Shown in pieces: positions 10,114 through 27,235 of a DNA stretch of 64,000 bases; the stretch's first letter is position 1; every line of letters starts with the position of its first letter. The notes below the pieces were generated by a model, which was not told the origin of the DNA, made no database searches, and saw only the letters and a list, made by a program, of their open reading frames with translations. The position numbers and the translations under genes were made by a program. Origin of the DNA: a virus; IMG/VR virus record IMGVR_UViG_3300020048_002392, positions 17,838-81,837 of that record; one strand, 5' to 3'.

Positions 10114-10122
10114 GGATAATAA

Positions 10123-13100: not shown

Positions 13101-15459
13101 ATTTATTCCACTTACTTCAACACAGTCTACACTCATTTCATCTCGCATAGCAGAAGTTGGAAGAACTACGAGTGGTAAGGGCAAAGGTAGAACAACATCT
13201 ATTACTACACAGCAAACCGACATCATACAGGATATCACCAGATCTCTTCAAGTATCTGAAGGTAATGTAAACGAACAGAACCTCGGCGAATTTGTTACAA
13301 ACTTTAACTTTAATCCTTTCATGAGATCAAGAGAAGTTAGAATCTTGATGAATGGTTTGAGACCTGACACGCGACATTACTTCTATTTCGATCGTCAAGA
13401 TGTTAATGCAAACGTTGTCCCAGGCTTGGTGCCATCATCAGACTCAGTAAGAGACATAGTAAGATCGAGTTCTGCTAACAATTCAGTTATTACAGACAGC
13501 AATGGTAGATTGGCAGCAATCTTTACAATACCGCCTGAAACATTCTATGTAGGTGATAGAACTCTATTGATCTCTGACGTTGATAATATCAACTCAGTAG
13601 ATTCAGCAGGGACTTCTGGCGGGGATATAGTCTATAGAGCGTATAACTTCTCAGTGAATAAGCAAGGACTAACTCTTACAACAAGAGAACCTGAGATTGA
13701 AGTAACTGAAACAATAACTCAAAGAACCGTTGTGAACAGACCAGTCACAGCAACTGTCAGACGAGGTCGTCGCATCGACCCTCTTGCACAGACATTCTTT
13801 ATTAAGTCCGCGATGGCTCGTGATGCAGACTCTCTATACGTATCAAGAATTGACCTCTTCTTTAAGAGAAAGAGTTTGTTGAATGGTGTTACTGTTATGT
13901 TAAGAGAAGTTTTAAACGGTTATCCTGCTCCAGAGATTATGCCGTTCTCAAAAGTCCACCTTAATCCAGCAGACGTACTAACTTCAGAAGATGGTTCGTT
14001 AGCAACTTCAGTTTTCTTTAAAGCGCCTGTGAGATTAGATGTAGAAAAAGAATACTCTGTAGTTATAATGCCGGACGCAGCAGACCCAGACTATCTAGTT
14101 TACACTGCAAAGGTAGGCCAAACGGATCTAACAACCGGTTCTCCAGTTGTAATGGACTGGGGTGATGGTGTTCTATTTACTTCTACGAACAACAGAGCAT
14201 GGCAATCATATCAAGACGAAGATCTTAAGTTTACACTTTACAGAAGAAACTTTGAAAAACCATCTGGTACATTGACTCTTACCAATGAAGACCACGAATT
14301 CCTTACAGTGTCTGCTATAACTGGCGATTTCCAGAGTGGAGAAACAGTATATGCTCTAAAGAACCACCTAGGTGCAACCGCGAACACAGTATCATTGGTG
14401 ACAGGCAATACGACTATAAGCGGCACATCGCTATCAGATACATATAACGTAAATGATTACTTGTATGTTGTGAGCGGCGCAAATGAAGACATATTCAAAG
14501 TGCTAGAGGTGTCTTCAGGTTCAATAGTTGTTGACAAACCTGCTAGATTTACCGGTTCATATGAAGGAAGACCTGCTGTAACCGGAAGGATCGTATACTA
14601 TAACAACAGATCCCCTGATATGATGGTCCTAGAAAACTCTTCTGCAAGTCTTACTAAGATTTTTTCAGCTAGTGATGTAGTTAACGGATTTACATCTGGC
14701 GCTTTTGCTACTGTTGCGTCAGTTGACAATATAGAATTAAGCTATATGCAGCCAATCATACTTAAGACAAATAACAACGTCACGGACGTATCAATGACCG
14801 GCACGTTTACAGATCCTGCAGATCCTAATACAACATACACAAGAAATATTCAGTTTAATGATAAGTCAGTGTATAACGAAAAGGGTTGCGTGATATACAG
14901 TAAATCGAATGGAGTAAAACCGTTCGACTTAATTCTAACTATGACTAACAGTTCAAATGAAACTGCGTCTCCATTTATTGACGTTGAAACTGCGACCATG
15001 TTAGCGTATCAGTATAAAGTAAGCGCAAACAACGAGAACACTTCTTCTTATGTCTCAAGAACGATTGAACTTGCAGAAAATCTAGACGCGGAAGATTTCT
15101 TACTCTACACTACTGCATATAGACCAATTAATACAAACATTAACGTGTATGTTAAGGCACAACACGCATCAGACCCAACTCAGTTTGAATTAAATAATTG
15201 GATACAATTGGAACTAGTAGAAGGAAACGAAGTATATTCTTCTTCTAGTAATCTAAACGATTTTAAAGAGTTTGTTTATAAATTACCTGAGGCCGAAAAG
15301 GTAGCAGGCGTTTTAACATATAGTAATGCATCAGGTACTTATTCTGGTTATAGAAAGTTTGCTGTTAAAATAGAGTTCATCGTGAACGAAGTTAATGGCA
15401 GAATTCCAATAGGCTCTGTTCCAAGATTACTCGATTATAGGGGGATTGCATTAACATGA
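10123..15459 (+). CDS. Large virion structural protein (VrlC/DUF4815-like)
   Basis: N-terminal LN..PYYDDY......RILFRPG..LQARELTQLQTILQ.Q, APGA.RLK, RFKNG..VDPF, DPLAQTF and W...Q.EDLKF.LYR motifs. 1778 aa. Confidence 0.8.
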   Translation: MPIRTDLNEPPYYDDYDITKQYHRILFRPGYALQARELTQLQTILQNQVEQFGDNIFKEGSIIKGCNFTELSSLKYVKVADTGLDVTQYVGGVNETTGVETFYELQGQTTGLRALVIAAAFGFETNDPDLSTFFINYLNTSSTQEKVFDQGETLDVYRYTITDDVTSAGVKVTEFPVTTRSNHVGNSFGVDSAVGIVYQKGHFLFAKQQTVILTKYTNVPDGISVGYRVRESLITSLTDASLYDNSIGAPNQNAPGANRLKLEPILVAIPTTEANGDETFFTLARYVNGVAVQTRDVSQYNVLGEEMARRTFEESGNYIVKGLKTKIVDRNGLKASIGPGVAYVKGFRVENKGEIFVDVDQIGLTETVIQQNQPVSFNYGGYVDIANNFTIGTLPVSNYTTADLKNIGGTTIGTAFVRNYTPGRVYLSNIRMGANNFSSVVSIAGAAGSVPIAPVIKQKSNDVLIFDAGETFIKSITDISLPVRKTRSLTGITDTITLVALTGEDFTVQQDDILIVDSTNDNLVISSITKSVDNTTLTINLVPGQTPAATGTIYYNSKIQITEPHNKLDKTLYVKATYAIGTTSYCLGFPDVYQIVSITDSAGSNVTNSFRLKPNQQDHFYDLSYIEYIPGRPVPASGLMTIALKAFKVDTATGSYFFTADSYPNTIDLSLIPSYRSSSGVNFNLRNCMDFRPHAANTVSYTSAEVSGTAPTVSTAVGAAPTFTGSFIVPALNSAATVDYEYYLNRTDVITIDSYGKFSATKGKASLKSYAPTIEDDRLVISEIYVPGYPAITSDRASLENKPELAVKTKSLGTKVYTMKDIQNIDKKISQLFYYMSVSLLEATTENMNITDESGIPRFKNGILVDPFNDLSIADVKNNEFNAAIDFTEKSLTPAVKTIPLNLKYKASSNTTLHPSTTEIDIATLETVTNIPVISQTYATNFRNCVSNFYDYLGSGFLFPEYDGAFDTVTAPSPNIDIDLVTPFIEYTEALQEFIPLTSTQSTLISSRIAEVGRTTSGKGKGRTTSITTQQTDIIQDITRSLQVSEGNVNEQNLGEFVTNFNFNPFMRSREVRILMNGLRPDTRHYFYFDRQDVNANVVPGLVPSSDSVRDIVRSSSANNSVITDSNGRLAAIFTIPPETFYVGDRTLLISDVDNINSVDSAGTSGGDIVYRAYNFSVNKQGLTLTTREPEIEVTETITQRTVVNRPVTATVRRGRRIDPLAQTFFIKSAMARDADSLYVSRIDLFFKRKSLLNGVTVMLREVLNGYPAPEIMPFSKVHLNPADVLTSEDGSLATSVFFKAPVRLDVEKEYSVVIMPDAADPDYLVYTAKVGQTDLTTGSPVVMDWGDGVLFTSTNNRAWQSYQDEDLKFTLYRRNFEKPSGTLTLTNEDHEFLTVSAITGDFQSGETVYALKNHLGATANTVSLVTGNTTISGTSLSDTYNVNDYLYVVSGANEDIFKVLEVSSGSIVVDKPARFTGSYEGRPAVTGRIVYYNNRSPDMMVLENSSASLTKIFSASDVVNGFTSGAFATVASVDNIELSYMQPIILKTNNNVTDVSMTGTFTDPADPNTTYTRNIQFNDKSVYNEKGCVIYSKSNGVKPFDLILTMTNSSNETASPFIDVETATMLAYQYKVSANNENTSSYVSRTIELAENLDAEDFLLYTTAYRPINTNINVYVKAQHASDPTQFELNNWIQLELVEGNEVYSSSSNLNDFKEFVYKLPEAEKVAGVLTYSNASGTYSGYRKFAVKIEFIVNEVNGRIPIGSVPRLLDYRGIALT

Positions 15460-15641
15460 TACGCGACGAAAGAACCAAAGCTTTAATAAACCCCGATGCG
15501 GACGCACTATATAAATATAAAGCGGAACGCGAAAAGAACCGCAAAATGATTAAGATAGAGAATGATCTAGAAAATCTTAATCGAAAAGTAGAAGCTTTAT
15601 CTAAACTTTTAGAAAATAGAACAGAGAAGAATAATGGCTAA
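15456..15641 (+). CDS. Small coiled-coil hypothetical protein
   Basis: 61-aa ORF (RD..TKALIN.D...Y) overlapping its neighbours in operon fashion. Confidence 0.6.
   Translation: MIRDERTKALINPDADALYKYKAEREKNRKMIKIENDLENLNRKVEALSKLLENRTEKNNG
15510..15517 (+). promoter_or_regulatory. T4-type late promoter TATAAATA
   Basis: Exact match ~120 bp before fibre gene 15634. Confidence 0.5.
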
Positions 15642-16977
15642 GTCAATAACTGAAGTAACTGCTAGTAACACCTTCCAAGTATGGCTTGATAAAACAAACG
15701 AAATTGTTGAAATTATAAACAACGATGTGCTTACAGCATCTCCGTCTGCAAATGGTGACATTACTATAGGTAATGCTACGTTAATTGGTAACCTAACTGC
15801 CAACAATATGATAGCAAGCGCGTTATTAAGAGCAGACACCATAAGCCCGCTAATAGGATCTACATCTATATTAAGCACAGCCTTATTCAATATAACTACG
15901 AGCCAAACCGTTCTTGAAAGACTTACTAGTGCAGTTGGTCCTAGAATGGCATTCACCGATGGTGCTGTTGAATGGCAAGCTGGTTTTGAAAACGCGTTAA
16001 ACAAAAACTTCGTTATTACTTCCGGTGGAACTTCAGTATTTAGAATCACCCCTACTGGTGACGTAGAGATAAATGGCACTGTTACCGCCGGTTCTGTTCA
16101 AGCTGCATCTGCAACCGCAAACACGTTAACTACTGCTAGAACTATTGCTGCTACAGGAGACATAACTTGGTCTGTATCATTTAATGGAGGAAGCAACGTT
16201 ACTGCGGCCGCTACGATACCAGTAAACTCTATAAGCAATACAAAGATAAGACAATCTGCCGGCCTTTCACTAGTAGGTCGCGCAGGAAGCACTCTAGGAG
16301 ATGTAGCCGACATAACATCGTCCGCCGATCATCAAGTGCTTAGAAGATCTGGCTCTACGATTGGATTTGGTGCAGTTGCATTAAACCAAGCTGCCGCAGT
16401 CACTGGAGTGTTGCCGGCAGCAAACGGCGGAACTGGTGCATCTGCGCTAACTGCAAATAAGTTGATGGTTGGAAACGGCGCCGCTGACGTATTAACACCA
16501 ACCGCACTTCATTGGGATGGAGTAAATACACGACTTGGTATTAATACAGTTACTCCGACTGAAAGACTTGAAGTAAACGGAAACGTTAAAGCAACGTTCT
16601 TTATTGGTACTGCTACGTCTGCTCAGTACGCCGACCTTGCAGAAAAGTTCTTACCTGAAACTGATTATGAAATTGGTACAGTCGTAATGATCGGTGGAAA
16701 CGCTGAGATTACCGACACCAAAAATATCGCTGACGTTGCTATCGGTGTTATTTCCGGAGAGCCTGCGTTCATGATGAACGAAACTCTTGCTGGCGGACAA
16801 TACGTTGCGCTAAAAGGTCGAGTTCCAGTTAAAGCAGTTGACACCGTAAGAAAAGGTGATATACTAATACCAGGGCCAAATGGTGTCGCACAGCGCGGAA
16901 TTAGAACGTCCTATAACAAATTTGGTATTGCTATAAGTGATTGGTCGGATGGATTCGTGGAGGCCGTTATATTATGA
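15634..16977 (+). CDS. Short tail fibre/baseplate fibre with C-terminal chaperone-like domain
   Basis: NTFQVWLDKTNEI N-terminus, LTTARTI, GVLP.ANGGTG and RLGINT..P..RLEVNG fibre motifs, and C-terminal YADLAEKF...GVIS..PAF.MN...VALKGRVPVK (autocleaved chaperone-type). Confidence 0.75.
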   Translation: MAKSITEVTASNTFQVWLDKTNEIVEIINNDVLTASPSANGDITIGNATLIGNLTANNMIASALLRADTISPLIGSTSILSTALFNITTSQTVLERLTSAVGPRMAFTDGAVEWQAGFENALNKNFVITSGGTSVFRITPTGDVEINGTVTAGSVQAASATANTLTTARTIAATGDITWSVSFNGGSNVTAAATIPVNSISNTKIRQSAGLSLVGRAGSTLGDVADITSSADHQVLRRSGSTIGFGAVALNQAAAVTGVLPAANGGTGASALTANKLMVGNGAADVLTPTALHWDGVNTRLGINTVTPTERLEVNGNVKATFFIGTATSAQYADLAEKFLPETDYEIGTVVMIGGNAEITDTKNIADVAIGVISGEPAFMMNETLAGGQYVALKGRVPVKAVDTVRKGDILIPGPNGVAQRGIRTSYNKFGIAISDWSDGFVEAVIL

Positions 16978-17450
16978 TATCCAGTGACGAGGTGTTTGCG
17001 TTTATTACGCAATCACTTCCATACGAACAAAGAATCGTTTCATATATTGATAAAAATAACTTACAGCACCAAGTAAATAAATTCTCAGATATACCGTCAC
17101 TTAATGAAATAACATTAAAGTTAGAAGGTATGGAAAAATATTCAAAAAGAATATGGGAACATTGTAAACTATTAGCAATTCAGAAAATGTTTACTGGTCC
17201 AGTATCTTGTCACCTATTCCTAGCACAGATAGGCTCTCCTTCATTTGGTAGGCACACCGATCCAGATGACGTTATAATATGGTGCACAGAAGGAATAAAA
17301 AGTTTGTATGTAGAGGATACCAAATACGATCTTAATCCAGGTTCATCTGTTTCTATACCTGCTAATACTCCACACGAAATTATTAATGAGCATAACTCAG
17401 TAATGTTAAGCTTTGGATTTGAACACTATTATATAGATAAGTTGGTATGA
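16974..17450 (+). CDS. JmjC/cupin-4 type Fe(II)/2OG oxygenase
   Basis: SFGRHTDPDDV...EG.K...L.PG....IP....H. The ATG at 16974 overlaps the upstream stop (ATGA). Confidence 0.75.
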   Translation: MISSDEVFAFITQSLPYEQRIVSYIDKNNLQHQVNKFSDIPSLNEITLKLEGMEKYSKRIWEHCKLLAIQKMFTGPVSCHLFLAQIGSPSFGRHTDPDDVIIWCTEGIKSLYVEDTKYDLNPGSSVSIPANTPHEIINEHNSVMLSFGFEHYYIDKLV

Positions 17451-18475
17451 ATTGGACATTTTACTTAAAAACAACAGAGACCTGTAATTTAAACTGTCTC
17501 CATTGTTTTACAAGCGGCACAAGTGGTGCTAAGATATATTGGAAGCCGGATCTTATAAAGGATTGGCTCAAAAGATTTAGAGAAGAAAATCCAAAGGAAA
17601 CTGATACTGCGCATTGCGAGTTTCATGGAGGAGAACCTTTTCTTGCTCCAGTTTCACAGATGCGAGAAGTCTGGCAGGAATGCAAAGATCTTTGGCCGAG
17701 TATGACTTGGGGTGTAACTACCAATCTAGTCTTCAAACTTACAGATGATCATATAGATTTTATTAAGGGCCCACTTGAAAACCGATTAGGTTCTTCTTGG
17801 GACCCTAAGATACGTTTTGCAAATAAGAAACAATATAATCTTTGGCATTCAAACATTAAGAGACTATTAAATGAAGGTGTAGTAGTTAGACTATTCATCA
17901 GTGTAACTAAAGATACTATCGATTACGAACCTATTGTATTACTGCGTTGGCTAAGAAGATTGGGTGTTCAAGAAGTTTCATTTGAAAGACTTACGAATAA
18001 TGGAAGCGCTAGAAAATCGCCAGGAATATTTCCAACCAACGTTGAAATAGATGAATGGTTTCTAAAGATGCACTTGCAGTCAGAAGCTGTAGGAGCAAGA
18101 GGTTGGTTTGAAAATGACTTCTTAGAAAATGTATATGCTAAGTTTGAAAAACAGTTGAACTCGTGTGGTACTTTCTGCAGGGACTGTGAGGAGAAGCTAT
18201 TCACGTTAAACCCAGACGGATCTATATCTGGGTGTCCAAATGCAGCGCCTGAATTCCAGTTCGGTCATTTAGAGGATGAAATAAAAGTTCTTCTTAAAAG
18301 TCCAAAGCGTATTATAAATATGATTGAAGAAAGAAGCAGAAACCCAAAGTGCTATACCTGCCCAGTCTTCCGTTTTTGTAACGGCGACTGTCACCAATTA
18401 GAATGGCAAGGTGACGTATGTGGTGCACCGAAGAGTTTGATGAGTCATATCGCAAAAGAAAAAGGTTTACTTTAA
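17447..18475 (+). CDS. Radical SAM/SPASM-domain enzyme #1
   Basis: CNLNCLHC, FHGGEP, and SPASM-like Cys set CRDC...DGSISGCPN...CYTCPVFRFCNGDC...C. Confidence 0.92.
   Translation: MNWTFYLKTTETCNLNCLHCFTSGTSGAKIYWKPDLIKDWLKRFREENPKETDTAHCEFHGGEPFLAPVSQMREVWQECKDLWPSMTWGVTTNLVFKLTDDHIDFIKGPLENRLGSSWDPKIRFANKKQYNLWHSNIKRLLNEGVVVRLFISVTKDTIDYEPIVLLRWLRRLGVQEVSFERLTNNGSARKSPGIFPTNVEIDEWFLKMHLQSEAVGARGWFENDFLENVYAKFEKQLNSCGTFCRDCEEKLFTLNPDGSISGCPNAAPEFQFGHLEDEIKVLLKSPKRIINMIEERSRNPKCYTCPVFRFCNGDCHQLEWQGDVCGAPKSLMSHIAKEKGLL
18313..18320 (+). promoter_or_regulatory. T4-type late promoter (TATAAATA) upstream of the 196-aa CHxxC-tail gene
   Basis: Exact TATAAATA about 155 bp before ATG 18476, inside the upstream rSAM gene. 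Similar placement is seen for the late promoters before gp8, VrlC and the fibre. Confidence 0.55.
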
Positions 18476-19066
18476 ATGGCAACTTTAACTAACCCGATTA
18501 ATAAACAGAATATAGTAGATAGATTTGCAGACTATGTAGTCGCAACTGGAAACTCTGGCATATCTTGGGGTACAAATAACCGCCCGCCATATTTCAATAC
18601 AACATACCTAGGTTTCGAACCATTTGGTGGAACTACGGGTGGAAAAGCAATAGAATCATCTGCAGCAAATATAACAGATGCTAATGTAACAGCCGCCACG
18701 ATATATAACGTACTAGTCGCTGAAACACAAAGATATAGTAACATTAGAAACTTGAGAGCTTTAGTTAATGTAACTGGCGCAGGCGGTAATACACCTATAG
18801 GCCCGGAAGTTCCTGGGGCACCAGGTATAATTTACGATGTCACTGCTAAAGCATATCTATCAACAGCATATAGACAAGCAACCATATCTCCAGCAAATGC
18901 TGGAGTTGCAGCAGCTCAAGTTGCTAGAAGTGCTAACCTAGAATCTTTTTATAATAATTTACGAACAACATATTCTACATATGGAAATACTACCGCTACT
19001 ATACAAGTGAACGTATGTCATTCTTCATGTCATACTTCTTGTCATGCAAATAGAGGTAGAAGGTAA
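18476..19066 (+). CDS. Putative virion protein / radical SAM substrate with C-terminal (C-H-x-x)3 tail
   Basis: Ala/Thr/Asn/Gly-rich 196-aa body with no Cys or His until the final CHSSCHTSCHANRGRR (19016-19063). Confidence 0.7.
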   Translation: MATLTNPINKQNIVDRFADYVVATGNSGISWGTNNRPPYFNTTYLGFEPFGGTTGGKAIESSAANITDANVTAATIYNVLVAETQRYSNIRNLRALVNVTGAGGNTPIGPEVPGAPGIIYDVTAKAYLSTAYRQATISPANAGVAAAQVARSANLESFYNNLRTTYSTYGNTTATIQVNVCHSSCHTSCHANRGRR

Positions 19067-19080
19067 AAGGAAGGAATATT

Positions 19081-19803
19081 ATGCAAGTTATTGAAACGAT
19101 TGCACCTATAAGTCTAGATCACTTAAAGGTCTACTTTACAGATAAGGAAACTCTATTTAAAATAAACTACGCAGATTCTGAATTAAAAGAAGATAAGTTA
19201 TTCGTATATCTATCGAATCTAGAACTACCGTGTGACCTAGTGTTTTCTTCAGATGAAGAAGTTATGGCTGCTGTAAAATCATATCTTTATTTTTCTCATA
19301 TTCTATCAGTGCCTATTCTTGAAAATCTAACTATTTCCTTATTACTACAATTTAAAGGAATAGGTGAAGATAAAATATGGCCAGAAGAATTCTTAAATGA
19401 AAATTCAGTTATACTAAATAGTTGGGTACAAAAGCTAGAATCTTTAACTCTTTACAATCTTTATACTGTTGATCTAGAAGATTTGAAAGATTATGTTAAA
19501 ACATTTAAAGAAGATAATACAAATTCTACTGAAGGTATAAACTTTGTTAGTTTGTTAAAAAATCCAAACTTTTATATGTTCTATAATAGTATAGATGAAA
19601 ACAACTTAACATATTATTCTACATATTTTGAAGAGTATATGTTTAAAGGATCTAATCTTTATAGCTACTGGGCAAACGAAAATAACCCAATGTTTATGTT
19701 AACTTGGTCGATAGTTTCTGGTGAATTAAATTATAAAGAATATTTCGAGAGCATTAAGAATGATGAGCAGGAGTTAGCTTTAAGTGTTTCACCTAGCTCA
19801 TAA
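19081..19803 (+). CDS. Hypothetical protein (radical SAM island)
   Basis: 240-aa ORF with AAGGA RBS. No recognisable motif. Confidence 0.7.
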   Translation: MQVIETIAPISLDHLKVYFTDKETLFKINYADSELKEDKLFVYLSNLELPCDLVFSSDEEVMAAVKSYLYFSHILSVPILENLTISLLLQFKGIGEDKIWPEEFLNENSVILNSWVQKLESLTLYNLYTVDLEDLKDYVKTFKEDNTNSTEGINFVSLLKNPNFYMFYNSIDENNLTYYSTYFEEYMFKGSNLYSYWANENNPMFMLTWSIVSGELNYKEYFESIKNDEQELALSVSPSS

Positions 19804-20926
19804 GTTATATCTATGCCATGAAAATACTATTGACACGAATAAAGATAGAGTAGTAATATCTCAAGAAAACGGATATTACATGCACGAAGTAATTCAGAAG
19901 ATATCAAATGGTACTCTTTTTAAGTGCGCAAATAGTATCGACGATTTAATAAAGGGCAAGGATATATCGGAATTCTTTTCCGAACTTATTGACTTTTGTG
20001 TACAAAGGGATCGCCCTCTTTGCATATACACGGATAAGAAAACATTTGCATTCATTCAACTTGCTTGGTTCAATTTGATATTCAAAGAACCATCCTTTGA
20101 AACGTGCGAGATACTATATAACTCAAATGTATTTAAATACGATATGTTTTATAAAGGAAGGTTTTCTTCAAACCACGGTTCAAAGATAAAAATAGATTTG
20201 GCTTTGAATACTGGAACTCTTAAAAGTATATATGATAAAGTTCCTCACGCAGCAAATGCAAAGAAAAGAAGTTTCTTTGCAAGATATTCTAAATACGTAA
20301 GTGTTGAATACTTATTAGCATCGTATGTACACAACGGTTCTATGAAAAAAGAATTAAAAGAGAATATAAGAAGACTCTTGAGAAAAGACATAGAAAAATA
20401 CATATACGAATTAAAAGAAATATTCGTAATACATTTTACAACTCGGACCTTTAAAGAAAGACTAGGTTTAGAAAAAGAATACGATATTCAAAACATGCAG
20501 GACATAGTGAATGACAAATCTAAATTTGCAGAACTCTTTATGTCCAATAGACTATTCTTTGTATCAGGGATGGATCTACCATCGAGTAAGATGAATAAAA
20601 ATTTTAGATTTGAACAAATAACTGATGAAGACGTAAATAACTTTAAAGAATTCACTGTTTTATCCGGCACAACTTGGGGAGAAGAAGCAGTCTATCAGTT
20701 TATCAAATCAGATATAAACAAATTGGACTTTATTGATATTATAAATGACGAGTTTACTGATAAGAGATTGGAAGATCTATTAAATGCAGAGTCTACGTAT
20801 GAACATGCTGCCGGTTCATTCTTTTCAATAGATTTGGAAACTGTAAATAACTATCTTGTAGAATACATATTAGACTCAAGATTTAAAAACGATAGAGAAA
20901 ATCTTAGAAGCATGACTCTATGCTAA
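19784..20926 (+). CDS. Hypothetical protein (radical SAM island)
   Basis: 380-aa ORF, GTG start after GGAG, overlapping its neighbours. Confidence 0.7.
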   Translation: MFHLAHKLYLCHENTIDTNKDRVVISQENGYYMHEVIQKISNGTLFKCANSIDDLIKGKDISEFFSELIDFCVQRDRPLCIYTDKKTFAFIQLAWFNLIFKEPSFETCEILYNSNVFKYDMFYKGRFSSNHGSKIKIDLALNTGTLKSIYDKVPHAANAKKRSFFARYSKYVSVEYLLASYVHNGSMKKELKENIRRLLRKDIEKYIYELKEIFVIHFTTRTFKERLGLEKEYDIQNMQDIVNDKSKFAELFMSNRLFFVSGMDLPSSKMNKNFRFEQITDEDVNNFKEFTVLSGTTWGEEAVYQFIKSDINKLDFIDIINDEFTDKRLEDLLNAESTYEHAAGSFFSIDLETVNNYLVEYILDSRFKNDRENLRSMTLC

Positions 20927-21933
20927 ATGATGATATCTATAAGGCAATATCTAATAAAATAATTCTTCATAGTGAGATAGTAGTATGCTTATTCGAGCAT
21001 TGCAATATGGAATGCATATTCTGTCCGCAGAAACACGATAATATAGTAGGAGCTTCAAGAGAAGAGATACTTTCTAAAGTAGATTCTATAGTAAACTATA
21101 TCAACAATAATAAACGCTCAACTCATTTTAAAATACATGCAATGGGTGGAGAACTGTTTCAAGATCAATGGATTGAAAAAGGTTTCTTAGAAATATATTC
21201 AGATTTCATAAAAGAAATACAAAGCCGAGTAGATAAAGAAATAGAATTTAACTTTATTACGAATTTGGTATTTGATAACACTGATTTAGTAATGCAGTTT
21301 ATAGAGTCGAATAATCTTTTAATCTCTGTATCATATGACGCTAAGGGTAGATTTAGTTTATCGCAATTTGAAATATTTAAAAGAAACATAGAAATATTTA
21401 AAGACAAGATACGAATGATATCTTGCGTTGGCACAAAACAGAATATGAGAGCAATCATAAACGGTAACGAATACTTTAGTTACTTATATGACATGTTTCC
21501 GTGTGATTGGGATTCATTCCTTCCGTCCGTGCCGGTTTCTGAAAAGCTTATGCCAGCTGAAACTGAACTATTAGAGTTCTATAAATTTTTAGTTGACAAC
21601 TACCCAAGATGTATAAACATATCATACTTTACCGAAGACTCTGTTTCTAATAAAATGTCTTGCACCAGAGGAAACAGTCACACGGTCATGCCGGATGGGT
21701 CTACTCCAAAAGGTTGTTCCGGATCAGTACTACTTACAAGCCCAACATCAAACGATCTTTTTTCTGGCGCTATAGTAGAGAAATTCATAAATACATATGA
21801 TTGCTTCCAATGTGAATTCTATAAGAAGTGTCCTTTTACTTGCTTTATTAAAAATGATTACTCTAAGATAAAGCGTGATCTAGGTGAATGCGTTTTTAAG
21901 GAGACGTTTAAATATGTTAAGGAAAAAAATTAA
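20920..21933 (+). CDS. Radical SAM enzyme #2
   Basis: CNMECIFC, MGGEL and C-terminal C...C...CFQCEFYKKCPFTC auxiliary-cluster motif. Confidence 0.88.
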   Translation: MLNDDIYKAISNKIILHSEIVVCLFEHCNMECIFCPQKHDNIVGASREEILSKVDSIVNYINNNKRSTHFKIHAMGGELFQDQWIEKGFLEIYSDFIKEIQSRVDKEIEFNFITNLVFDNTDLVMQFIESNNLLISVSYDAKGRFSLSQFEIFKRNIEIFKDKIRMISCVGTKQNMRAIINGNEYFSYLYDMFPCDWDSFLPSVPVSEKLMPAETELLEFYKFLVDNYPRCINISYFTEDSVSNKMSCTRGNSHTVMPDGSTPKGCSGSVLLTSPTSNDLFSGAIVEKFINTYDCFQCEFYKKCPFTCFIKNDYSKIKRDLGECVFKETFKYVKEKN

Positions 21934-23605
21934 GTTTGCATTTATAAATCCACCACACGCGGATTGGTCATTGGCAAACAACATGACGTATCTAATATGT
22001 CAGAGTTATTATAATCATTTTGGTAAATATAAAGACGACGTTGAATGGATTCCAGCGCCGTATAAGTTTGACTTATATAAAGACATAGAAGAGATAGTAG
22101 ATCTTCTTACTCCAGCGGATGTTATTATGTTTAGTTCTTATGCATGGAACTATACTATATGTGACGACGTGGCAAAAATAATCAAAGAAAAATACCCAGA
22201 AAAGATATTACTATTAGGTGGTCCTCACATTGGAACAAACGAGCCCGATCTTTTAAGCAAAAGAACATTCTATGATTATGTATGTCAACCTACTAAACCA
22301 GGTGAGACATTTATTCAGGACGTAATAGACTGCATTATTGAAGACAGGTTATCTTCTGAAAATATATCTTGGGAACTAAATAGCAAACGTGGAATAAGTG
22401 CAGCATTTGATGTAGATTATTCAGTATACGAGGAACACCTAGATTACCTTACTGAAATGGTAAGTTATGCAAAAAAATATAAATTAGAACCATTCGTTGT
22501 AATAGAAACAACACGAGGATGCCCATATAAGTGTGTGTATTGTGAATGGGGTGGTGGAATTGGTACAAAAATAATAAAGAAAGATATAGAATTAGTTAAA
22601 AGAGATATCTTAGCGCTAAAGAAAGCTGGTTTCAGAGACGCGTATTTAACAGATGCAAACTTCGGCGCATTCGAAGAAAGAGATGTATCTATCTTCAAGT
22701 TTGCATGGGATCACAAGTTTAATCTAACAGATATTAGTACAATGAAATCTAAAGATCTAAATAGAAGAAAGAGATTAATCGATTCTATATCAAATATAGT
22801 TGGAAAAGGGCCAGAAAAACATTCAGTTTCTGAAGGTGGAACTGATATGTGGGGAAATACAGAATACATATCTGTAATACCAGCAGTAAGCATTCAAAGT
22901 GTTAGCGAAGTTGCCATGAAAATTGCCGATCGTGTAGACCTAAGCTTAAAGGATAAGTTAGAACTTTCAAAATATGTAAATCATATGTGTAGTAAAGAAG
23001 ATTATCCAATACCAGCAGTAGAATTAATTCTTGGTATGCCAGGTTCAACGCTTGATGATTTTTATACTGAAGCGAATATCCTATGGGACTTTAAAGCATG
23101 GTCAAGCTTTAGACACGACTATATGTTTCTACCAGATTCCAGATTAAACTCGAAAGAATATAAAGAAAAATACCAAATAGAAACGGTAGAAGTTTATTCT
23201 GATATCGTGGATGAAGATGGCACTGATAACTGGCACAACTTATATAAAAACAAAAGGACATACTTTAAAACTATAAGATCGTGCTTTTCTTTTACGTCGG
23301 AAGATATGTATGAAATGTGGTTTATGAACAATGCTACAAATTACTTATTAAAAAACATTTATCCAATGTTGGAAAATTATGCGTCACCTAAAGAATTTGC
23401 CAAAGAAGCTTACAACGTAATAAATACTATAGAAGGATTTGACGATATCTATCAAGAAATCGTAGACATATTGAATCCTAATACACCTCCAAAATCCATA
23501 AGAAAATTAGGTGACAATTTTAGAGCAAAGACTATAGAAGATTTTCTTGTTAAAAACAATATAATCCTAAAATCTGAAATAACGAAAAGGTTGTTAATAA
23601 AATAA
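21914..23605 (+). CDS. Cobalamin-dependent (class B) radical SAM enzyme #3
   Basis: N-terminal B12-binding-like region (FSSYAWN...GGPH), then IETTRGCPYKCVYCEWG, DANFG and ELILGMPG. Confidence 0.85.
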   Translation: MLRKKIKFAFINPPHADWSLANNMTYLICQSYYNHFGKYKDDVEWIPAPYKFDLYKDIEEIVDLLTPADVIMFSSYAWNYTICDDVAKIIKEKYPEKILLLGGPHIGTNEPDLLSKRTFYDYVCQPTKPGETFIQDVIDCIIEDRLSSENISWELNSKRGISAAFDVDYSVYEEHLDYLTEMVSYAKKYKLEPFVVIETTRGCPYKCVYCEWGGGIGTKIIKKDIELVKRDILALKKAGFRDAYLTDANFGAFEERDVSIFKFAWDHKFNLTDISTMKSKDLNRRKRLIDSISNIVGKGPEKHSVSEGGTDMWGNTEYISVIPAVSIQSVSEVAMKIADRVDLSLKDKLELSKYVNHMCSKEDYPIPAVELILGMPGSTLDDFYTEANILWDFKAWSSFRHDYMFLPDSRLNSKEYKEKYQIETVEVYSDIVDEDGTDNWHNLYKNKRTYFKTIRSCFSFTSEDMYEMWFMNNATNYLLKNIYPMLENYASPKEFAKEAYNVINTIEGFDDIYQEIVDILNPNTPPKSIRKLGDNFRAKTIEDFLVKNNIILKSEITKRLLIK

Positions 23606-24126
23606 TGATAAAAGATATTTACACAAAGGGATTTGTAAAACTAAGTGAACCGTCCGCTCTAGACCTTATAAGGATTGACGAGTTCAGACTACTTAACGTA
23701 GAAGAAAGAGCAAGAGATAACGGTGTAAAAGACGTTAGTCCAGAATTATCAAAGAGAATGGATGTATTTGCGCAATACTTAAAAACAAAATACATACTAC
23801 CAGAATGGCCCGATGCAAAATATAATAAGTTTTTAGTTTGGGACGGAGTTGATGCTGACAACCAAGGTTGGCATACTGATATGTTTGAAAACTACGATGT
23901 CTTCTTTCTTTACTATTTCGATACTCAATACGAAGAAACAGGCGGATCTATAAATTTCAAGTGGGGATCTTTAGAAGATAAGGAAGAAACGGCTCAGTTC
24001 TACCCTCAAGCAGGAGACCTATTCATGGTAAACAATTGCAGAGGATTTTGGCATAGGGCAGAGTCAACAAAGATTACACGAAGACTAGCAAGCTTTGATT
24101 TTAGTGTAGGTTTAGAAGATGACTAA
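23605..24126 (+). CDS. Fe(II)/2OG oxygenase
   Basis: WHTD...GG.I.F...P.AGDL..VN....WH.A....RR (HxD...H...R). Confidence 0.8.
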   Translation: MIKDIYTKGFVKLSEPSALDLIRIDEFRLLNVEERARDNGVKDVSPELSKRMDVFAQYLKTKYILPEWPDAKYNKFLVWDGVDADNQGWHTDMFENYDVFFLYYFDTQYEETGGSINFKWGSLEDKEETAQFYPQAGDLFMVNNCRGFWHRAESTKITRRLASFDFSVGLEDD

Positions 24127-24418
24127 TGAAATAGAAGAGTTGCTTGCCAAGAAACAAATCATCGGAGATGAAAGGGATCTATGCGCAGAGTTATATAACG
24201 TATGGATTACCAAATTGCATGATTTTCAAAAAGACCCGGTAAAGTATAAAATGTATATGGATATGATACAAATGATGGAACCGTATGGCGCGCAATTAAA
24301 GGAAGAGATACGCGAAATAAACAGAAGACTCTGCGAAATAGAAGGTGTCGATTCAATCGGTGAAACGGATTATGTTAGAGAATGCAACAACAAGTACGGC
24401 AAGGCCAAACCAAATTGA
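24119..24418 (+). CDS. Hypothetical helical protein
   Basis: 99-aa ORF overlapping both neighbouring oxygenases. Confidence 0.6.
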   Translation: MTNEIEELLAKKQIIGDERDLCAELYNVWITKLHDFQKDPVKYKMYMDMIQMMEPYGAQLKEEIREINRRLCEIEGVDSIGETDYVRECNNKYGKAKPN

Positions 24419-24915
24419 TAATTGAAGACTTTTTCACTAAAGGATTTGTTCACTCTAAATTTGACATAGACGTCGTAGATATGTTTAAGAATGATCACTT
24501 TATTGACTGTAATTCTAAAGAAGCAGATGATCAGACAATCGGTGAAGAGGCACAACTAAAACTAAATGAAATACATTTGTACATTGGAAAGAGTATCGTA
24601 AAGAAAGTATTTAGTAACTTTACTTATCATAGAAATGGAATGTGGTGTGGGGTTGATACTGGATCTGCAGAATGGCATAATGATTTTATTGATGGCGACC
24701 CTTTTACAAGCAACCTTTTAATATATCTAGAAGATGGTGAACCTTATGGTAATTCTATAGAAGTAAAGAACCAATTTGAAGAGTATAAAGTTATGCCAAA
24801 ACCAAATGAATATGTTTGGCTAAATCAAAACAAAAAATTTATGCATAGAGCGACTCATAAAAGCGGCCCAAGAAGATTACTATCATTTGAATTTTATATA
24901 CCAGCATTGGTTTAA
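24382..24915 (+). CDS. Fe(II)/2OG oxygenase (paralogue of 23605..24126)
   Basis: I.DF.TKGFV N-terminus shared with the paralogue, and GVD.....WHND...HRA.....RR. The start codon is uncertain. Confidence 0.75.
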   Translation: MQQQVRQGQTKLIIEDFFTKGFVHSKFDIDVVDMFKNDHFIDCNSKEADDQTIGEEAQLKLNEIHLYIGKSIVKKVFSNFTYHRNGMWCGVDTGSAEWHNDFIDGDPFTSNLLIYLEDGEPYGNSIEVKNQFEEYKVMPKPNEYVWLNQNKKFMHRATHKSGPRRLLSFEFYIPALV

Positions 24916-24917
24916 TC

Positions 24918-25955
24918 ATGGATCTAATTATCAAACCCACTGAAGTTTGTAACTTCAAATGTACATTCTGCTCTTCTACAAAGATATCAGAGGAACACAC
25001 CTCGCAGTTAGATCTGGAGAAAGTCTTTAGATTCCTTAAGAGATATCCTGAGACAAAGACAATCATTGTAAACGGCGGTGATCCTCTTATGATGAGTCCT
25101 GCGTACTATTGGCGAATGATTAAACACTTAGAAGAAAACAATTACCCTGCGACTATCTCTCTTACTACAAACCTTTGGCCTTTCTATAAGAACGTCTCTA
25201 AGTGGAAGACTTTATTTCTACACCCGAGGATTGGAATCTCAACATCATTCCAATATGGAAACGGTAGACTGAAAGGAGACTACTCAGTATTTACAGAGGA
25301 AGACTTCTGGGCAGCATCTGATACAATGTTAAAAGAGATCGGCTATAGGCCAACGTTCATAGCAGTCATTACAGAAGAGAATGAAGACACTGCGTTGAAA
25401 ACTGTTGAACTTGCAAAAAAGATGGACGTAGTATGTAAAGTAAACTATGCTATGGCTTCAGGTGACCAAGGAGTACCTTATCGTTTATCAAAGATATATG
25501 AGAAGTACATTGAGATCTGGAAGGCAGGTCTTGCTCCGTGGGAACACAACACACAGCAGATGATGAAGAGACTCCGCGGTGAACAAACTATCTGCCCTCA
25601 AACTAGAACCTGCGACTCGAGTATTCGAACGATACAGCCAGAAGGAGACTATTATTCCTGCGGTGCGTTCGGCGACGATCGTGATAAAGCTATTGATTTT
25701 GAATACGAAATGAATGGCGGATTTTCAACTCCTCTTGCTGATGACTTTAACTTACTATCGTTAAAGCAAGTTTGTTTCTCGTGTCCGATGTTTGAAATAT
25801 GTAACGGCTGTAGAAAGACTGTTAAGGATCTGAAAGAACATAGAATGGTAGAAGATCATTGTAAGCATATGAAGCAACTTGCGCCAGATATTATAGAATC
25901 AAACGGATTGAATTTAGAGGTAACACCATATGTCTACGAAGGGCTACACGGTTAG
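24918..25955 (+). CDS. Radical SAM/SPASM enzyme #4
   Basis: IKPTEVCNFKCTFC, NGGDP and CP....C......EGDYYSC...CFSCPMFEICNGC...C. Confidence 0.92.
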   Translation: MDLIIKPTEVCNFKCTFCSSTKISEEHTSQLDLEKVFRFLKRYPETKTIIVNGGDPLMMSPAYYWRMIKHLEENNYPATISLTTNLWPFYKNVSKWKTLFLHPRIGISTSFQYGNGRLKGDYSVFTEEDFWAASDTMLKEIGYRPTFIAVITEENEDTALKTVELAKKMDVVCKVNYAMASGDQGVPYRLSKIYEKYIEIWKAGLAPWEHNTQQMMKRLRGEQTICPQTRTCDSSIRTIQPEGDYYSCGAFGDDRDKAIDFEYEMNGGFSTPLADDFNLLSLKQVCFSCPMFEICNGCRKTVKDLKEHRMVEDHCKHMKQLAPDIIESNGLNLEVTPYVYEGLHG

Positions 25956-26877: not shown

Positions 26878-27235
26878 AGAGTATGATGACGATTTGAATA
26901 AAGTCAACATAGTTATATCTGAAGACGTGATTAAAGATGCAATAAGACATTTTAATGAATATGTAGAGGATTGGATATATCCTTCGAAAAGCTATTTCGT
27001 TGCTATATGTTATGCGTATTGGTTATCAGAAGAGTTTAATGAAAACTTTTATGATCTTTTAAACGACCCAGATCTATTAGCAGGAAATGACCCTTATTAC
27101 ACTACATACAACAAAGATAAGAATACATATGATTCAATATTAAGTGGTATAAAACTTCCGATTGAATATAAAGGTATGGTGAACGAAGTAAGAAAATATT
27201 ATGACGAGGAATTTAATGACCCAGCAAAATTCTGA
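26831..27235 (+). CDS. Hypothetical acidic/aromatic protein
   Basis: ORF within the island, probable start ATG 26831. Confidence 0.6.
   Translation: MKEWKIRQEIYHRLHKEYDDDLNKVNIVISEDVIKDAIRHFNEYVEDWIYPSKSYFVAICYAYWLSEEFNENFYDLLNDPDLLAGNDPYYTTYNKDKNTYDSILSGIKLPIEYKGMVNEVRKYYDEEFNDPAKF

What the first reader, a model, noticed from the sequence alone, without database searches (positions are those of the whole stretch)
18476..19066. Structural-type protein with a terminal CHSS-CHTS-CHAN-RGRR core: candidate rSAM substrate
Seen: all three Cys and all three His of this protein lie in the last 16 aa with period 4. The rest is Ala/Thr/Asn/Gly-rich like the virion proteins here, and the gene abuts the SPASM enzyme. 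The tail reads both as CxxxCxxxC (ranthipeptide/CXXX-repeat-like thioether donors) and as H-S-S, H-T-S, H-A-N (the aromatic-X-Ser/Asn triplets cross-linked in triceptides and His-Xaa-Ser systems). Inference: a 180-aa 'leader' that is itself a virion subunit and carries a cross-linked tip. Alternative: an unmodified Cys/His metal site in a trimer, as in T4 fibre tips.
Basis: partly seen in the sequence, partly recalled or inferred. Interest (0 to 1): 0.88.

Follow-up and report, generated by a model that had tools for sequence, protein, structure and literature searches.

The report
Phage protein with radical-SAM substrate-like tail
A late phage protein ends in an almost invariant Cys-His-x-Ser triple repeat and always sits beside radical-SAM enzymes in several unrelated groups of large phages, so it is probably a protein that these enzymes chemically cross-link, which nobody has yet studied.

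Summary
ORF 18476-19066 (+, 196 aa) ends CHSSCHTSCHANRGRR and has no other Cys or His.

- **Conservation:** the tail is the most conserved part of a large phage-only family. It ends exactly CHxxCHxxCHxxRxRR in 117 of 120 close relatives and 137 of 150 diverse ones. Mean top-residue frequency is 0.83 for the tail and 0.39 for the body. Free synonymous codon change shows selection on the protein.
- **Gene order:** the gene follows a SPASM radical-SAM gene within 60 nt in 72 of 74 environmental loci. The core order cupin, rSAM, this gene, unknown 240-aa gene, second rSAM recurs in Agrobacterium Atu_ph07, Sinorhizobium Phosso, Ralstonia RSL2/RSF1, Burkholderia SURPRISE13 and Pseudomonas pPa_SNUABM_DT01.
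- **Expression signal:** a T4-type late-promoter motif precedes this gene in 64 of 74 loci and almost none of the enzyme genes.
- **Body:** it has a confident predicted fold with no solved relative.

Best reading (about 0.55): a late, probably virion-associated protein whose tail is matured by the adjacent enzymes. Neither the modification nor virion residence is shown. The kind is known from HXS, triceptides and QhpC/QhpD. I found no open-access paper on this phage system, and the scan had not noted it on other DNA.

The parts
18476..19066 (+). Gene of the 196-aa tail-bearing protein (called TARGET in this report). The body (residues 1-180) is a predicted alpha/beta domain; the tail is residues 181-196.
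   Evidence: ORF. AF2 model with pLDDT 82 and pTM 0.75. No Pfam or NCBIfam family; phrog_35144 matches only residues 146-196. 631 homologues at E<=1e-3 and 621 clusters at 50% identity.
19016..19063 (+). Coding sequence of the tail CHSS-CHTS-CHAN-RGRR: three C-H-x-S/N units plus R-x-R-R at the very C-terminus.
   Evidence: Residues 181-196. The ending is exact in 117/120 and 137/150 homologues.
18313..18320 (+). TATAAATA, a T4-type late-promoter-like motif inside the 3' end of the rSAM gene, 156 nt before the TARGET start codon.
   Evidence: 11 copies in the window, all on the + strand; present within 300 nt upstream of TARGET in 64/74 related loci, against 0/74 for rSAM1, 1/71 for cupin and 0/70 for unk240. 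Promoter activity is inferred, not shown.
17447..18475 (+). rSAM1: a radical-SAM enzyme with a canonical SPASM domain and no N-terminal recognition domain. It is the proposed first maturase of the tail.
   Evidence: TIGR04085 SPASM scores 40.2 bits against a cutoff of 27; all named maturase models score far below their cutoffs. phrog_1802 at 8e-67. Invariant C13/C17/C20 plus eight C-terminal Cys. Weak PDB matches to anSME, CteB and ChlB.
16941..17450 (+). Cupin-fold protein with a weak JmjC-like match. It is a candidate hydroxylase and the first gene of the conserved core.
   Evidence: PF07883 at 6e-10 and PF08007 JmjC_2 at 1e-4. Found upstream of rSAM1 in nearly all loci and in all cultured-phage modules.
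19081..19803 (+). unk240: a conserved 240-aa protein of unknown function (phrog_20767) that directly follows TARGET.
   Evidence: Starts within 120 nt of the TARGET end in 69/71 loci and is present in all cultured-phage modules. AF2 pLDDT 84, but no known fold.
19784..20926 (+). unk380: a 380-aa protein of unknown function, present in most environmental loci.
   Evidence: No family in Pfam, NCBIfam or PHROGs.
20920..21933 (+). rSAM2: the second radical-SAM enzyme of the conserved core.
   Evidence: phrog_1802 at 3e-27; PF04055 weak. Conserved in all lineages.
21884..23605 (+). B12-binding radical-SAM enzyme, an accessory gene present in only part of the loci. Its start codon is uncertain.
   Evidence: NF033712 at 1e-23 (below cutoff) and PF02310 plus PF04055. 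Presence and absence across loci.
23605..24126 (+). 2OG-Fe(II) oxygenase-like protein.
   Evidence: PF13640 at 1.5e-4; phrog_19592.
24382..24915 (+). Second 2OG-oxygenase-like protein.
   Evidence: phrog_19592 at 3e-8.
24918..25955 (+). rSAM3, a radical-SAM paralogue in phrog_1802.
   Evidence: phrog_1802 at 5e-58.
25930..26877 (+). rSAM4, a radical-SAM paralogue in phrog_1802.
   Evidence: phrog_1802 at 2e-29.
27201..27725 (+). 2OG-Fe(II) oxygenase, the last gene of the enzyme block.
   Evidence: phrog_81 at 1e-24.
10123..15459 (+). Context: a 1778-aa protein (phrog_358) that precedes the module in most related loci.
15634..16977 (+). Context: a 447-aa tail-fibre-like protein directly upstream of the cupin gene.
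   Evidence: Matches PHROG tail-fibre families. Synteny.

Best explanation
TARGET is a late phage protein, probably associated with the virion in the baseplate/fibre region. Its folded alpha/beta body presents an exposed 16-residue C-terminal tail, (Cys-His-x-Ser/Asn) three times followed by Arg-x-Arg-Arg. This tail is the substrate of the enzyme cassette that always accompanies the gene.

Proposed sequence of events:
1. A gp55-type late promoter inside the end of the rSAM1 gene raises TARGET transcription above that of the upstream enzymes. The motif is shown; its activity is inferred.
2. The SPASM radical-SAM enzyme rSAM1 abstracts a hydrogen from a side-chain carbon in each C-H-x-S unit and closes small rings. 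Each ring is either a His-C2 to Ser/Asn-C-beta bond of the triceptide type (aromatic-X-X) or a Cys thioether. This step is inferred.
3. The cupin, rSAM2 and, where present, the B12-rSAM and 2OG oxygenases add further changes. This step is also inferred.
4. The product is a rigid, cationic, protease-resistant tip on a full-size protein.

What is shown is the tail itself, its conservation and its genomic coupling. The chemistry and the site in the virion are inferred.
For: 1. **Tail conservation.** The tail is the most conserved segment of the family. In 130 diverse near-full-length members its mean top-residue frequency is 0.83 against 0.39 for the body, and the best 17-residue window in the body reaches 0.56. 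The ending is exact in 117/120 and 137/150 homologues. Cys and His are 0.98-1.00 conserved, and the fourth position of each unit is Ser or Asn in 245-251 of 253 tails.
2. **Selection on the protein.** There are 65 distinct 48-nt tail sequences using TGT/TGC and CAT/CAC, and Ser is coded by both AGY and TCN.
3. **Coupling to the enzyme.** An rSAM1 orthologue ends within 60 nt upstream in 72/74 loci, and the two genes often overlap by 13 nt. Of the two exceptions, one has a 2.2-kb insertion. The other (L078) has two short tail-bearing proteins followed at once by ORFs with a divergent CxxxCxxC motif.
4. **Same core in unrelated phages.** The core cupin, rSAM1, TARGET, unk240, rSAM2 is present in five further cultured-phage groups, where the body is 32% identical or less, or undetectable by tblastn. 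The tail is kept in 5/5 of these.
5. **The enzyme is of the right kind.** rSAM1 has a canonical SPASM domain above its curated cutoff, with all cluster cysteines invariant.
6. **Dedicated promoter motif.** TATAAATA lies within 300 nt upstream of TARGET in 64/74 loci, against 0/74 for rSAM1, 1/71 for cupin, 0/70 for unk240, 0/59 for unk380, 0/38 for the B12 rSAM and 0/47 for the 2OG gene.
7. **Structural-type features.**
   - Composition equals that of the neighbouring fibre protein.
   - Some family members carry large insertions.
   - One is fused to the Pfam 'Glycine-rich domain' PF21722.
   - The Atu_ph07 paper states that most virion proteins found by ESI-MS/MS lie in clusters, one being 'CDS 170-215', which begins at the TARGET orthologue gp170 (PMC6102473, section 29, read).
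8. **Precedents.** HxsB/HxsC mature HxsA at an S-H-R-S-S unit of its His-x-Ser repeats (PMC13128918, abstract and section 9 read). Triceptide synthases cross-link His-C2 to the C-beta of the third residue in HTK, HAA and HNR motifs (PMC11499958, abstract and passages read).
9. **A telling variant.** Two variant tails (P0158, P0184) have lost the middle Cys but keep a His-x-Asn triplet there.
Against: - No mass-spectrometric or structural data exist for any member, so a modification has never been observed.
- Invariant Cys and His are equally typical of metal ligands.
- rSAM1 scores far below the cutoff of every characterised maturase family (best 49 bits against 349), so the chemistry cannot be read from homology.
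- The enzyme has no recognisable substrate-recognition domain, and unk240 gave no known fold.
- The profile and word searches that gathered the homologues used the tail itself, which inflates the counts of tail-bearing members. Only the five orthologues found by position are free of this bias.
- Most environmental loci come from one syntenic phage lineage and are not independent.
- The RSL2, RSF1 and SURPRISE13 records call the orthologue 'hypothetical protein', while a nearby gene is called a virion structural protein.
- The Atu_ph07 protein list (Table S5) could not be read, so virion residence is unproven.
- The cassette lies among fibre genes, which could be its substrates instead.
Confidence: 0.55

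Rival explanations
1. The tail is an unmodified metal-binding site (Zn, Fe, Cu or an Fe-S cluster), formed by the three Cys-His pairs and perhaps shared between subunits of an oligomeric virion protein. The neighbouring radical-SAM and oxygenase genes act on something else, such as the fibres or a small molecule.
For: Cys and His are the invariant residues and the x positions are small. The AF2 monomer leaves the tail unstructured, as expected for a site that needs metal or partner chains. Metal sites in T4 fibre tips are known (recalled, not checked here). The cassette sits among fibre genes.
Against: It does not explain why Ser/Asn at the fourth position is nearly as conserved as the ligands and is kept across both Ser codon families. 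It does not explain why the gene stays fused in order to one particular SPASM enzyme across unrelated phage lineages and with a different rSAM in L078. It also does not explain why variants can lose a Cys yet keep His-x-Asn.
Confidence: 0.2
2. TARGET is a true precursor in the RiPP sense. The 180-residue body acts only as a large leader or carrier. After modification the tail, or a short peptide containing it, is cut off and acts by itself, for example as a metal-binding or host-directed peptide. It is not part of the virion.
For: The conserved core peptide lies at the extreme C-terminus next to SPASM enzymes, as in RiPP precursors. A dedicated promoter would give an excess of precursor over enzyme. 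Cultured-phage records do not annotate the orthologue as structural.
Against: No protease or exporter gene was recognised in the core module. The body is a conserved folded domain with lineage-specific insertions and one fusion to the Pfam 'Glycine-rich domain' PF21722, and its composition equals that of the neighbouring fibre protein, which is unlike a disposable leader. The Atu_ph07 virion-protein cluster starts at the orthologue (PMC6102473, section 29).
Confidence: 0.1
3. TARGET is an accessory part of the enzyme system rather than its substrate: a small Fe-S or metal carrier, an electron donor or a scaffold that serves the several radical-SAM enzymes.
For: Radical-SAM enzymes need cluster assembly and a reductant. 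The tail offers six potential ligands. The gene is always inside the enzyme block.
Against: The fold resembles no known ferredoxin, flavodoxin or scaffold: best Z is 3.8 and there is no Foldseek hit. Its composition is that of the fibre proteins, not of the enzymes. Its own late promoter, large insertions and tandem duplication in L078 are unusual for a cofactor carrier.
Confidence: 0.08

Closest known systems
HXS antiphage system (HxsA effector matured by radical-SAM enzymes HxsB and HxsC with HxsD); PMC13128918
   Same: A full-size protein, not a short peptide, carries tandem His-x-Ser units and is matured by two co-encoded radical-SAM enzymes. The mapped change lies in an S-H-R-S-S unit, and the repeats are rich in basic residues. 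TARGET has three His-x-Ser/Asn units followed by R-x-R-R and sits between two radical-SAM genes.
   Different: HXS is bacterial and periplasmic, and HxsA has a signal peptide and a peptidoglycan-binding domain. TARGET is phage-encoded, its units each begin with an invariant Cys, and they lie at the extreme C-terminus. No NCBIfam family matched TARGET at E<=0.01. rSAM1 and rSAM2 score 34 and 16 bits against HxsB and HxsC cutoffs of 370 and 268.
Triceptides: three-residue cyclophanes made by SPASM-type radical-SAM synthases such as HaaB, HtkB and YhhB on His-X-X motifs; PMC11499958
   Same: These are repeated aromatic-X-X motifs near the C-terminus of a precursor, cross-linked from His-C2 to the C-beta of the third residue by a radical-SAM enzyme encoded next to it. 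TARGET's H-x-S/N triplets fit this pattern. Two variants keep H-x-N where the Cys is lost.
   Different: Triceptide precursors are short bacterial peptides with leaders, whereas here the carrier is a 180-residue folded phage protein. The invariant Cys before each His has no counterpart. rSAM1 does not reach the YhhB model cutoff (29.7 against 445 bits) and matches ChlB only weakly.
Thioether-forming SPASM systems with periodic Cys (ranthipeptides/PapB, SCIFF/CteB, Cys-every-fifth CefB) and QhpD, which cross-links the QhpC subunit of quinohemoprotein amine dehydrogenase
   Same: They have regularly spaced Cys in a C-terminal core next to a SPASM enzyme. In QhpC the modified product is a subunit of a protein complex (recalled). 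PapB, SCIFF, CefB and QhpD models are among the weak hits of rSAM1, and CteB is a weak PDB hit.
   Different: All scores are far below the cutoffs. Known acceptors are Asp, Glu, Asn or backbone carbons at other spacings (recalled). The co-conserved His and Ser are not features of those cores.
Anaerobic sulfatase-maturating enzyme (anSME) and its sulfatase substrates
   Same: This is the best NCBIfam hit and the best named solved-structure hit of rSAM1. It is a SPASM enzyme without a recognition domain that acts on a full-size protein. The last unit, C-H-x-S-R, resembles the sulfatase C/S-x-P/A-x-R signature (signature recalled).
   Different: The score is 49 bits against a cutoff of 349. The residue at the P/A position is variable here. 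The first two units lack the Arg. No sulfatase fold is present.
Metal sites in phage fibre tips (T4 gp37 and gp12; recalled)
   Same: These are conserved His/Cys in a virion adhesin region encoded among fibre genes.
   Different: Those sites lie inside folded trimeric beta-structures, not in a terminal low-complexity tail, and are not linked to radical-SAM genes.

Membership tests
SPASM-domain radical-SAM enzymes (for the neighbour rSAM1, 17447-18475) | CxxxCxxC radical-SAM motif plus a C-terminal SPASM Cys motif (TIGR04085) | tested here: met
   TIGR04085 scores 40.2 bits against a cutoff of 27. C13/C17/C20 and C244, C247, C263, C302, C305, C311, C315 and C325 are invariant in 25 orthologues.
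His-Xaa-Ser (HXS) system | HxsA-family repeat protein and HxsB/HxsC equivalog enzymes | tested here: not met
   No NCBIfam family matched TARGET at E<=0.01. rSAM1 scores 34.2 bits against HxsB (cutoff 370), and rSAM2 scores 16.4 bits against HxsC (cutoff 267.9).
His-Xaa-Ser (HXS) system | Tandem His-x-Ser units in the matured protein | tested here: met
   There are three H-x-S/N units. Of 253 tails, Ser occupies the fourth position in 242, 205 and 222, and Asn in 9, 40 and 23.
Triceptides (3-residue cyclophane RiPPs) | Aromatic-X-X motifs in the precursor core | tested here: met
   H-S-S, H-T-S and H-A-N in the window protein, conserved as H-x-S/N.
Triceptides (3-residue cyclophane RiPPs) | Maturase belongs to a characterised cyclophane-synthase family | tested here: not met
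   YhhB NF041707 scores 29.7 against 445, FxsB 23.8 against 370 and AmcB 21 against 425. The ChlB structure is matched only at E 6.5e-4 over the N-terminal core.
Triceptides (3-residue cyclophane RiPPs) | Aromatic-to-C-beta cross-link (loss of 2 Da per ring) | not testable with these tools
   This needs MS/NMR of the matured protein.
Ranthipeptide / sactipeptide (thioether) systems | Maturase reaches the PapB, SCIFF or CefB model cutoff | tested here: not met
   PapB scores 46.9 against 340, the SCIFF maturase 23.2 against 425 and CefB 25.2 against 600.
Anaerobic sulfatase maturase system | anSME equivalog and a sulfatase substrate | tested here: not met
   TIGR03942 scores 49.1 against 349.45. 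TARGET has no Pfam family.
Virion structural protein | Detected in purified particles | not testable with these tools
   There is only indirect evidence. Other phage records say 'hypothetical protein'.
phrog_35144 | Match to the PHROG profile | tested here: inconclusive
   E 1.1e-5 over residues 146-196 only, to the end of a 186-position profile of unknown function.

The most novel reading that the evidence does not exclude
Large phages of at least three unrelated lineages (T4-like, Rak2-like and phiKZ-like) build into their particles a protein whose tip is made by radical-SAM chemistry: three tandem small rings on Cys-His-x-Ser units ending in an arginine cluster. This would be the first RiPP-type maturation of a virion component. 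It would be a phage-side counterpart of the bacterial HXS effector, acting at the cell envelope during adsorption or DNA entry, possibly against HXS-like barriers.
Probability: 0.2. Interest if true: 0.92.

Novelty: new variant of a known kind. Interest (0 to 1): 0.78.

Why it matters
Clusters of radical-SAM genes inside the structural regions of jumbo phages have been recorded as 'highly unusual' but left unexplained (PMC12390700, passage read; also PMC8541153, PMC8066314 and PMC11898562, passages read). This finding gives them a concrete candidate substrate that is easy to test: one small protein with an invariant 16-residue tail, present in cultivable phages of Agrobacterium, Ralstonia, Burkholderia, Sinorhizobium and Pseudomonas.

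If the tail is modified, it would extend radical-SAM peptide chemistry from secreted bacterial peptides to the proteins of virus particles. It would add a new core motif (C-H-x-S) to that chemistry. It would also give a five-gene cassette that acts on a folded protein carrier, which is of interest for enzyme discovery and for understanding how large phages build adsorption or entry devices. If the tail proves to be an unmodified metal site instead, the function of the enzyme cluster stays open.

Tried and rejected
- **Structure-based complex test.** Complex prediction with rSAM1, TARGET, three 4Fe-4S clusters and SAM returned 'no answer' (score 0.11, mark 0.32). I do not use it either way.
- **Fold of TARGET.** Foldseek against the PDB gave nothing at E<=0.001. 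The VIA-align wide search gave a best Z of 3.8. BFVD returned only uncharacterised phage proteins, among them one from Atu_ph07.
- **Fold of unk240.** The AF2 model is confident, but Foldseek PDB, the VIA wide search (best Z 4.5, over 51 residues only) and the ESM Atlas (no usable hit) gave nothing. The idea that it is a recognisable substrate-binding (RRE-like) partner could therefore not be tested.
- **Cupin.** Its PDB matches are generic cupins such as quercetin dioxygenase. The JmjC-type hydroxylase reading rests only on a weak Pfam hit.
- **Expression.** The look-up of sequencing runs listed no RNA holder, so I did not use read laying.
- **Bacterial copies.** The one scan of genome contigs found only two MAG contigs, and both carry the whole phage module. 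That scan uses tail- and N-terminus-derived patterns, so absence elsewhere is weak evidence.
- **Literature.** I found no paper on this system in these searches of the open-access library:
  - radical SAM + jumbo phage
  - radical SAM + phage + tail fiber + SPASM
  - radical SAM + bacteriophage + virion + PTM + cross-link + RiPP
  - phage-encoded + RiPP + radical SAM + precursor
  - the motif-string search, which was swamped by German words and is uninformative

  The original RSL2/RSF1 paper is not in the library.
- **Ideas considered and set aside.**
  - Haem c attachment: the tail contains CxxxCH, but the protein has no export signal, and this reading would not explain the first His or the Ser.
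  - Formylglycine formation at the last Cys, from its resemblance to the recalled sulfatase motif. I keep this only as a possible chemistry, because the P/A position is variable.
  - A conserved DNA or RNA element in place of a peptide, which the synonymous variation rejects.
Full report
**What is there.** The ORF at 18476-19066 (+) encodes 196 residues ending VNVCHSSCHTSCHANRGRR.
- Its only Cys (181, 185, 189) and only His (182, 186, 190) lie in the last 16 residues.
- The preceding ORF (17447-18475) stops directly before the ATG. It is a radical-SAM enzyme with a canonical SPASM domain: TIGR04085 scores 40.2 bits against a cutoff of 27, and the CxxxCxxC motif plus eight C-terminal Cys are invariant in 25 orthologues.
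- The protein's small-residue content (0.59) and charged-residue content (0.12) equal those of the neighbouring fibre-like 447-aa protein and differ from the enzymes.

**The family.** TARGET has no Pfam or NCBIfam family. One PHROG of unknown function matches its last 50 residues only.
- The word-indexed search found 631 relatives, and the 120 listed are 187-206 aa long. The exhaustive profile search found 621 clusters at 50% identity.
- The ending CHxxCHxxCHxxRxRR is exact in 117 of 120 and 137 of 150.
- Of the other 13 of those 150, seven keep CHxxCHxxCH but not the exact ending (a one-residue insertion before the Arg cluster, a cut or altered end, or a fourth repeat), and six lack it. Two of the six have lost the middle Cys but keep His-x-Asn.
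- In an alignment of 130 diverse near-full-length members, the tail has a mean top-residue frequency of 0.83 (entropy 0.76 bits). The body has 0.39 (2.52 bits), and the best 17-residue body window reaches 0.56.
- The unit is C-H-x-S. The third position is free, and the fourth is Ser or Asn in 245-251 of 253 tails.
- Among 65 distinct tail-coding sequences, Cys and His use both of their codons and Ser uses both the AGY and TCN families. Selection therefore acts on the peptide, not on a nucleic-acid element.

One caveat applies. The searches used the tail as part of their query, so these counts are biased towards tail-bearing members.

**A check free of that bias.** tblastn with TARGET found only Pseudomonas phage pPa_SNUABM_DT01 among 50,697 phage records. 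tblastn with rSAM1 found 15 records from 12 phages. In the five distinct modules I examined, the gene directly after the rSAM1 orthologue ends in the same tail, although the bodies have diverged and are 178-306 aa long:
- pPa_SNUABM_DT01
- Ralstonia RSL2
- Burkholderia SURPRISE13
- Agrobacterium Atu_ph07
- Sinorhizobium Phosso

These phages belong to phiKZ-like and Rak2-like groups, according to the papers whose passages I read (PMC5468394, PMC6102473, PMC12390700). The window itself has T4-type late-promoter motifs.

**Gene neighbourhood.** I examined 77 loci from IMG/VR.
- An rSAM1 orthologue ends within 60 nt of the first TARGET-like ORF in 72 of the 74 loci that have upstream sequence, and the two genes commonly overlap by 13 nt.
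- The unknown 240-aa gene follows within 120 nt in 69 of 71 loci.
- The usual order is the 1778-aa protein, the fibre-like protein, cupin, rSAM1, TARGET, unk240, unk380, rSAM2, sometimes a B12-rSAM, 2OG oxygenases and further rSAMs.
- Most of these loci are one syntenic lineage, so they are not independent.
- The five-gene core of cupin, rSAM1, TARGET, unk240 and rSAM2 also recurs in all the cultured-phage modules.
- In the exceptional locus L078, a 2846-aa fibre-like protein is followed by two tandem 137/138-aa proteins with the tail, and then at once by ORFs with divergent CxxxCxxC motifs. The tail stays with radical-SAM genes even when both the body and the enzyme differ.
- In L070-L073 the gene is split into a 308-aa and a 140-aa ORF, and only the second carries the tail.

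**Expression signal.**
- All 11 copies of TATAAATA in the window are on the + strand. One of them lies inside the end of rSAM1, 156 nt before TARGET.
- Across the related loci the motif occurs within 300 nt upstream of TARGET in 64 of 74.
- The same test gives 0/74 for rSAM1, 1/71 for cupin, 0/70 for unk240, 0/59 for unk380, 8/67 for rSAM2, 0/38 for the B12-rSAM, 0/47 for the 2OG gene, 12/59 for the fibre-like gene and 3/35 for the 1778-aa gene.
- There are 191 copies on the + strand and 21 on the - strand.
- The motif sits at different distances in different sub-lineages and is often the only copy in 20 kb.

That TATAAATA is the T4 late promoter is established knowledge. Its activity here is inferred. 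TARGET is thus singled out for its own late, presumably strong, transcription, as expected for a structural protein or a precursor made in excess of its enzymes.

**The body.** AF2 with 39 homologues gives a confident alpha/beta domain (pLDDT 82, pTM 0.75), with helices at 10-25, 73-89 and 152-171 and strands at 90-100, 117-128 and 173-181. The tail leaves the last strand with low confidence.
- Foldseek and the VIA-align wide search found no solved relative, with a best Z of 3.8.
- BFVD returned only uncharacterised phage proteins, among them one from Atu_ph07 and 504-660-aa proteins of an uncultured myovirus.
- Some family members carry large insertions between conserved elements, and one has an N-terminal domain that Pfam calls 'Glycine-rich domain' (PF21722).

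The body is therefore a real domain with a variable surface, not a disposable leader.

**Virion residence.** I could not obtain direct evidence.
- The Atu_ph07 paper (section 29 read) reports 131 virion proteins by ESI-MS/MS. It says that most are encoded in three clusters, one being 'CDS 170-215'.
- By the record's numbering, gp170 is the TARGET orthologue. This is consistent with gp180 being the giant structural protein and gp182 a 129-aa protein. That gp182 is the baseplate wedge protein named in the paper is my own inference.
- The list itself (Table S5) was closed.
- The records of RSL2, RSF1 and SURPRISE13 label the orthologue 'hypothetical protein'.

**Mechanism.** I commit to the following. 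The tail is the substrate of the cassette, and rSAM1 installs one small ring per C-H-x-S unit. This is inferred from three things:
1. the coupling described above;
2. the class of the enzyme;
3. the two precedents described next.

In the bacterial HXS system, HxsB and HxsC mature HxsA, a full-size protein with five His-x-Ser repeats, with a mapped change in an S-H-R-S-S unit (PMC13128918, abstract and section 9 read). Triceptide synthases link His-C2 to the C-beta of the third residue in HTK, HAA and HNR motifs (PMC11499958, abstract and passages read).

The strong conservation of Ser/Asn two residues after each His, and the two variants that keep His-x-Asn after losing the Cys, favour the His-to-Ser/Asn ring. 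The invariant Cys argues for an added or alternative thioether, or for a role in metal binding. I cannot decide between these, because rSAM1 is far below the cutoff of every characterised family. Its best scores are anSME 49/349, PapB 47/340, DynA 46/450, HxsB 34/370 and YhhB 30/445. Its PDB matches to anSME, CteB and ChlB are weak and cover mainly the core. The roles of the cupin, rSAM2, unk240 and the oxygenases are unknown.

**Rivals.** Three alternatives remain possible:
- an unmodified metal site;
- a true RiPP precursor whose tail is cut off;
- an accessory Fe-S or electron carrier.

The metal site is the strongest rival, because invariant Cys/His pairs are what metal ligands look like. 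It explains less well the conserved Ser, the fixed order with one SPASM enzyme across lineages, and L078.

**Comparison and novelty.** By function the thing resembles the HXS system, triceptides and QhpC/QhpD-type subunit cross-linking. It is a member of none by the curated models. It is restricted to phages in what I could search. The only two hits among the species genomes are MAG contigs that carry the whole phage module. Published genome papers list the cupin, radical-SAM and 2OG genes and call their number unusual, but they neither mention this protein nor propose a substrate in the passages I read. Four literature searches found nothing on it. I rate it a new variant of a known kind, radical-SAM maturation of a protein, in a new setting: a late and probably structural phage protein.

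**Verdict.** Interest is 0.78, because the prediction is sharp, concerns several cultivable phages, and can be settled by one co-expression and mass-spectrometry experiment.

Noticed in passing
window, 11 sites from 8411 to 53816 (+ strand): All 11 exact TATAAATA copies in the window are on the + strand. In the 77 related loci the count is 191 on the + strand and 21 on the - strand. This fits T4-type late promoters that drive the whole structural region in one direction.
   Followed up: partly
L078:1114-14589: This is a different architecture. A 2846-aa fibre-like protein is followed by two tandem 137/138-aa proteins that carry the same tail, then at once by a 400-aa and a 340-aa ORF with CxxxCxxC motifs unlike rSAM1. 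It may be a second, more divergent version of the system.
   Followed up: partly
L070-L073, about 9001-10366: The TARGET gene is split into a 308-aa ORF (N-terminal part plus an insertion, no tail) and a 140-aa ORF with the tail. The split is the same in four contigs. It could be a real split or a shared frameshift.
   Followed up: no
L082 and L083 (genome contigs): Contigs filed under a Marinovum sp. MAG and a Methanobacteriota archaeon MAG carry the complete phage module, from cupin to the last rSAM. They are most likely phage contigs binned into MAGs, so the host labels should not be trusted.
   Followed up: partly
window 19081-19803: The 240-aa protein after TARGET (phrog_20767) is conserved in every lineage and gives a confident AF2 model (pLDDT 84). 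It has no solved structural relative.
   Followed up: yes
P0158 and P0184 (database homologues): These variant tails have lost the middle Cys but keep a His-x-Asn triplet, with one extra residue before the last unit. P0270 has four C-H-x-S units and lacks the Arg cluster.
   Followed up: partly
P0203 (database homologue, 276 aa): The N-terminal 90 residues match a periplasmic-binding-protein domain (PF13377) and are fused to the C-terminal half of TARGET. This is possibly a chimeric assembly.
   Followed up: no
window 16941-27725: The enzyme block holds four phrog_1802 radical-SAM paralogues, one B12-binding radical-SAM enzyme, a cupin and three or four 2OG-oxygenase-like proteins. It lies between fibre genes, and a collagen-like 1316-aa fibre follows at 30377. 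The B12 enzyme and some oxygenases are present in only part of the related loci.
   Followed up: partly
G000 (the window's own record): The window lies in an 81.8-kb viral record that CheckV estimates at 39% complete, so the phage genome is probably near 200 kb. The motif occurs once in the record.
   Followed up: no
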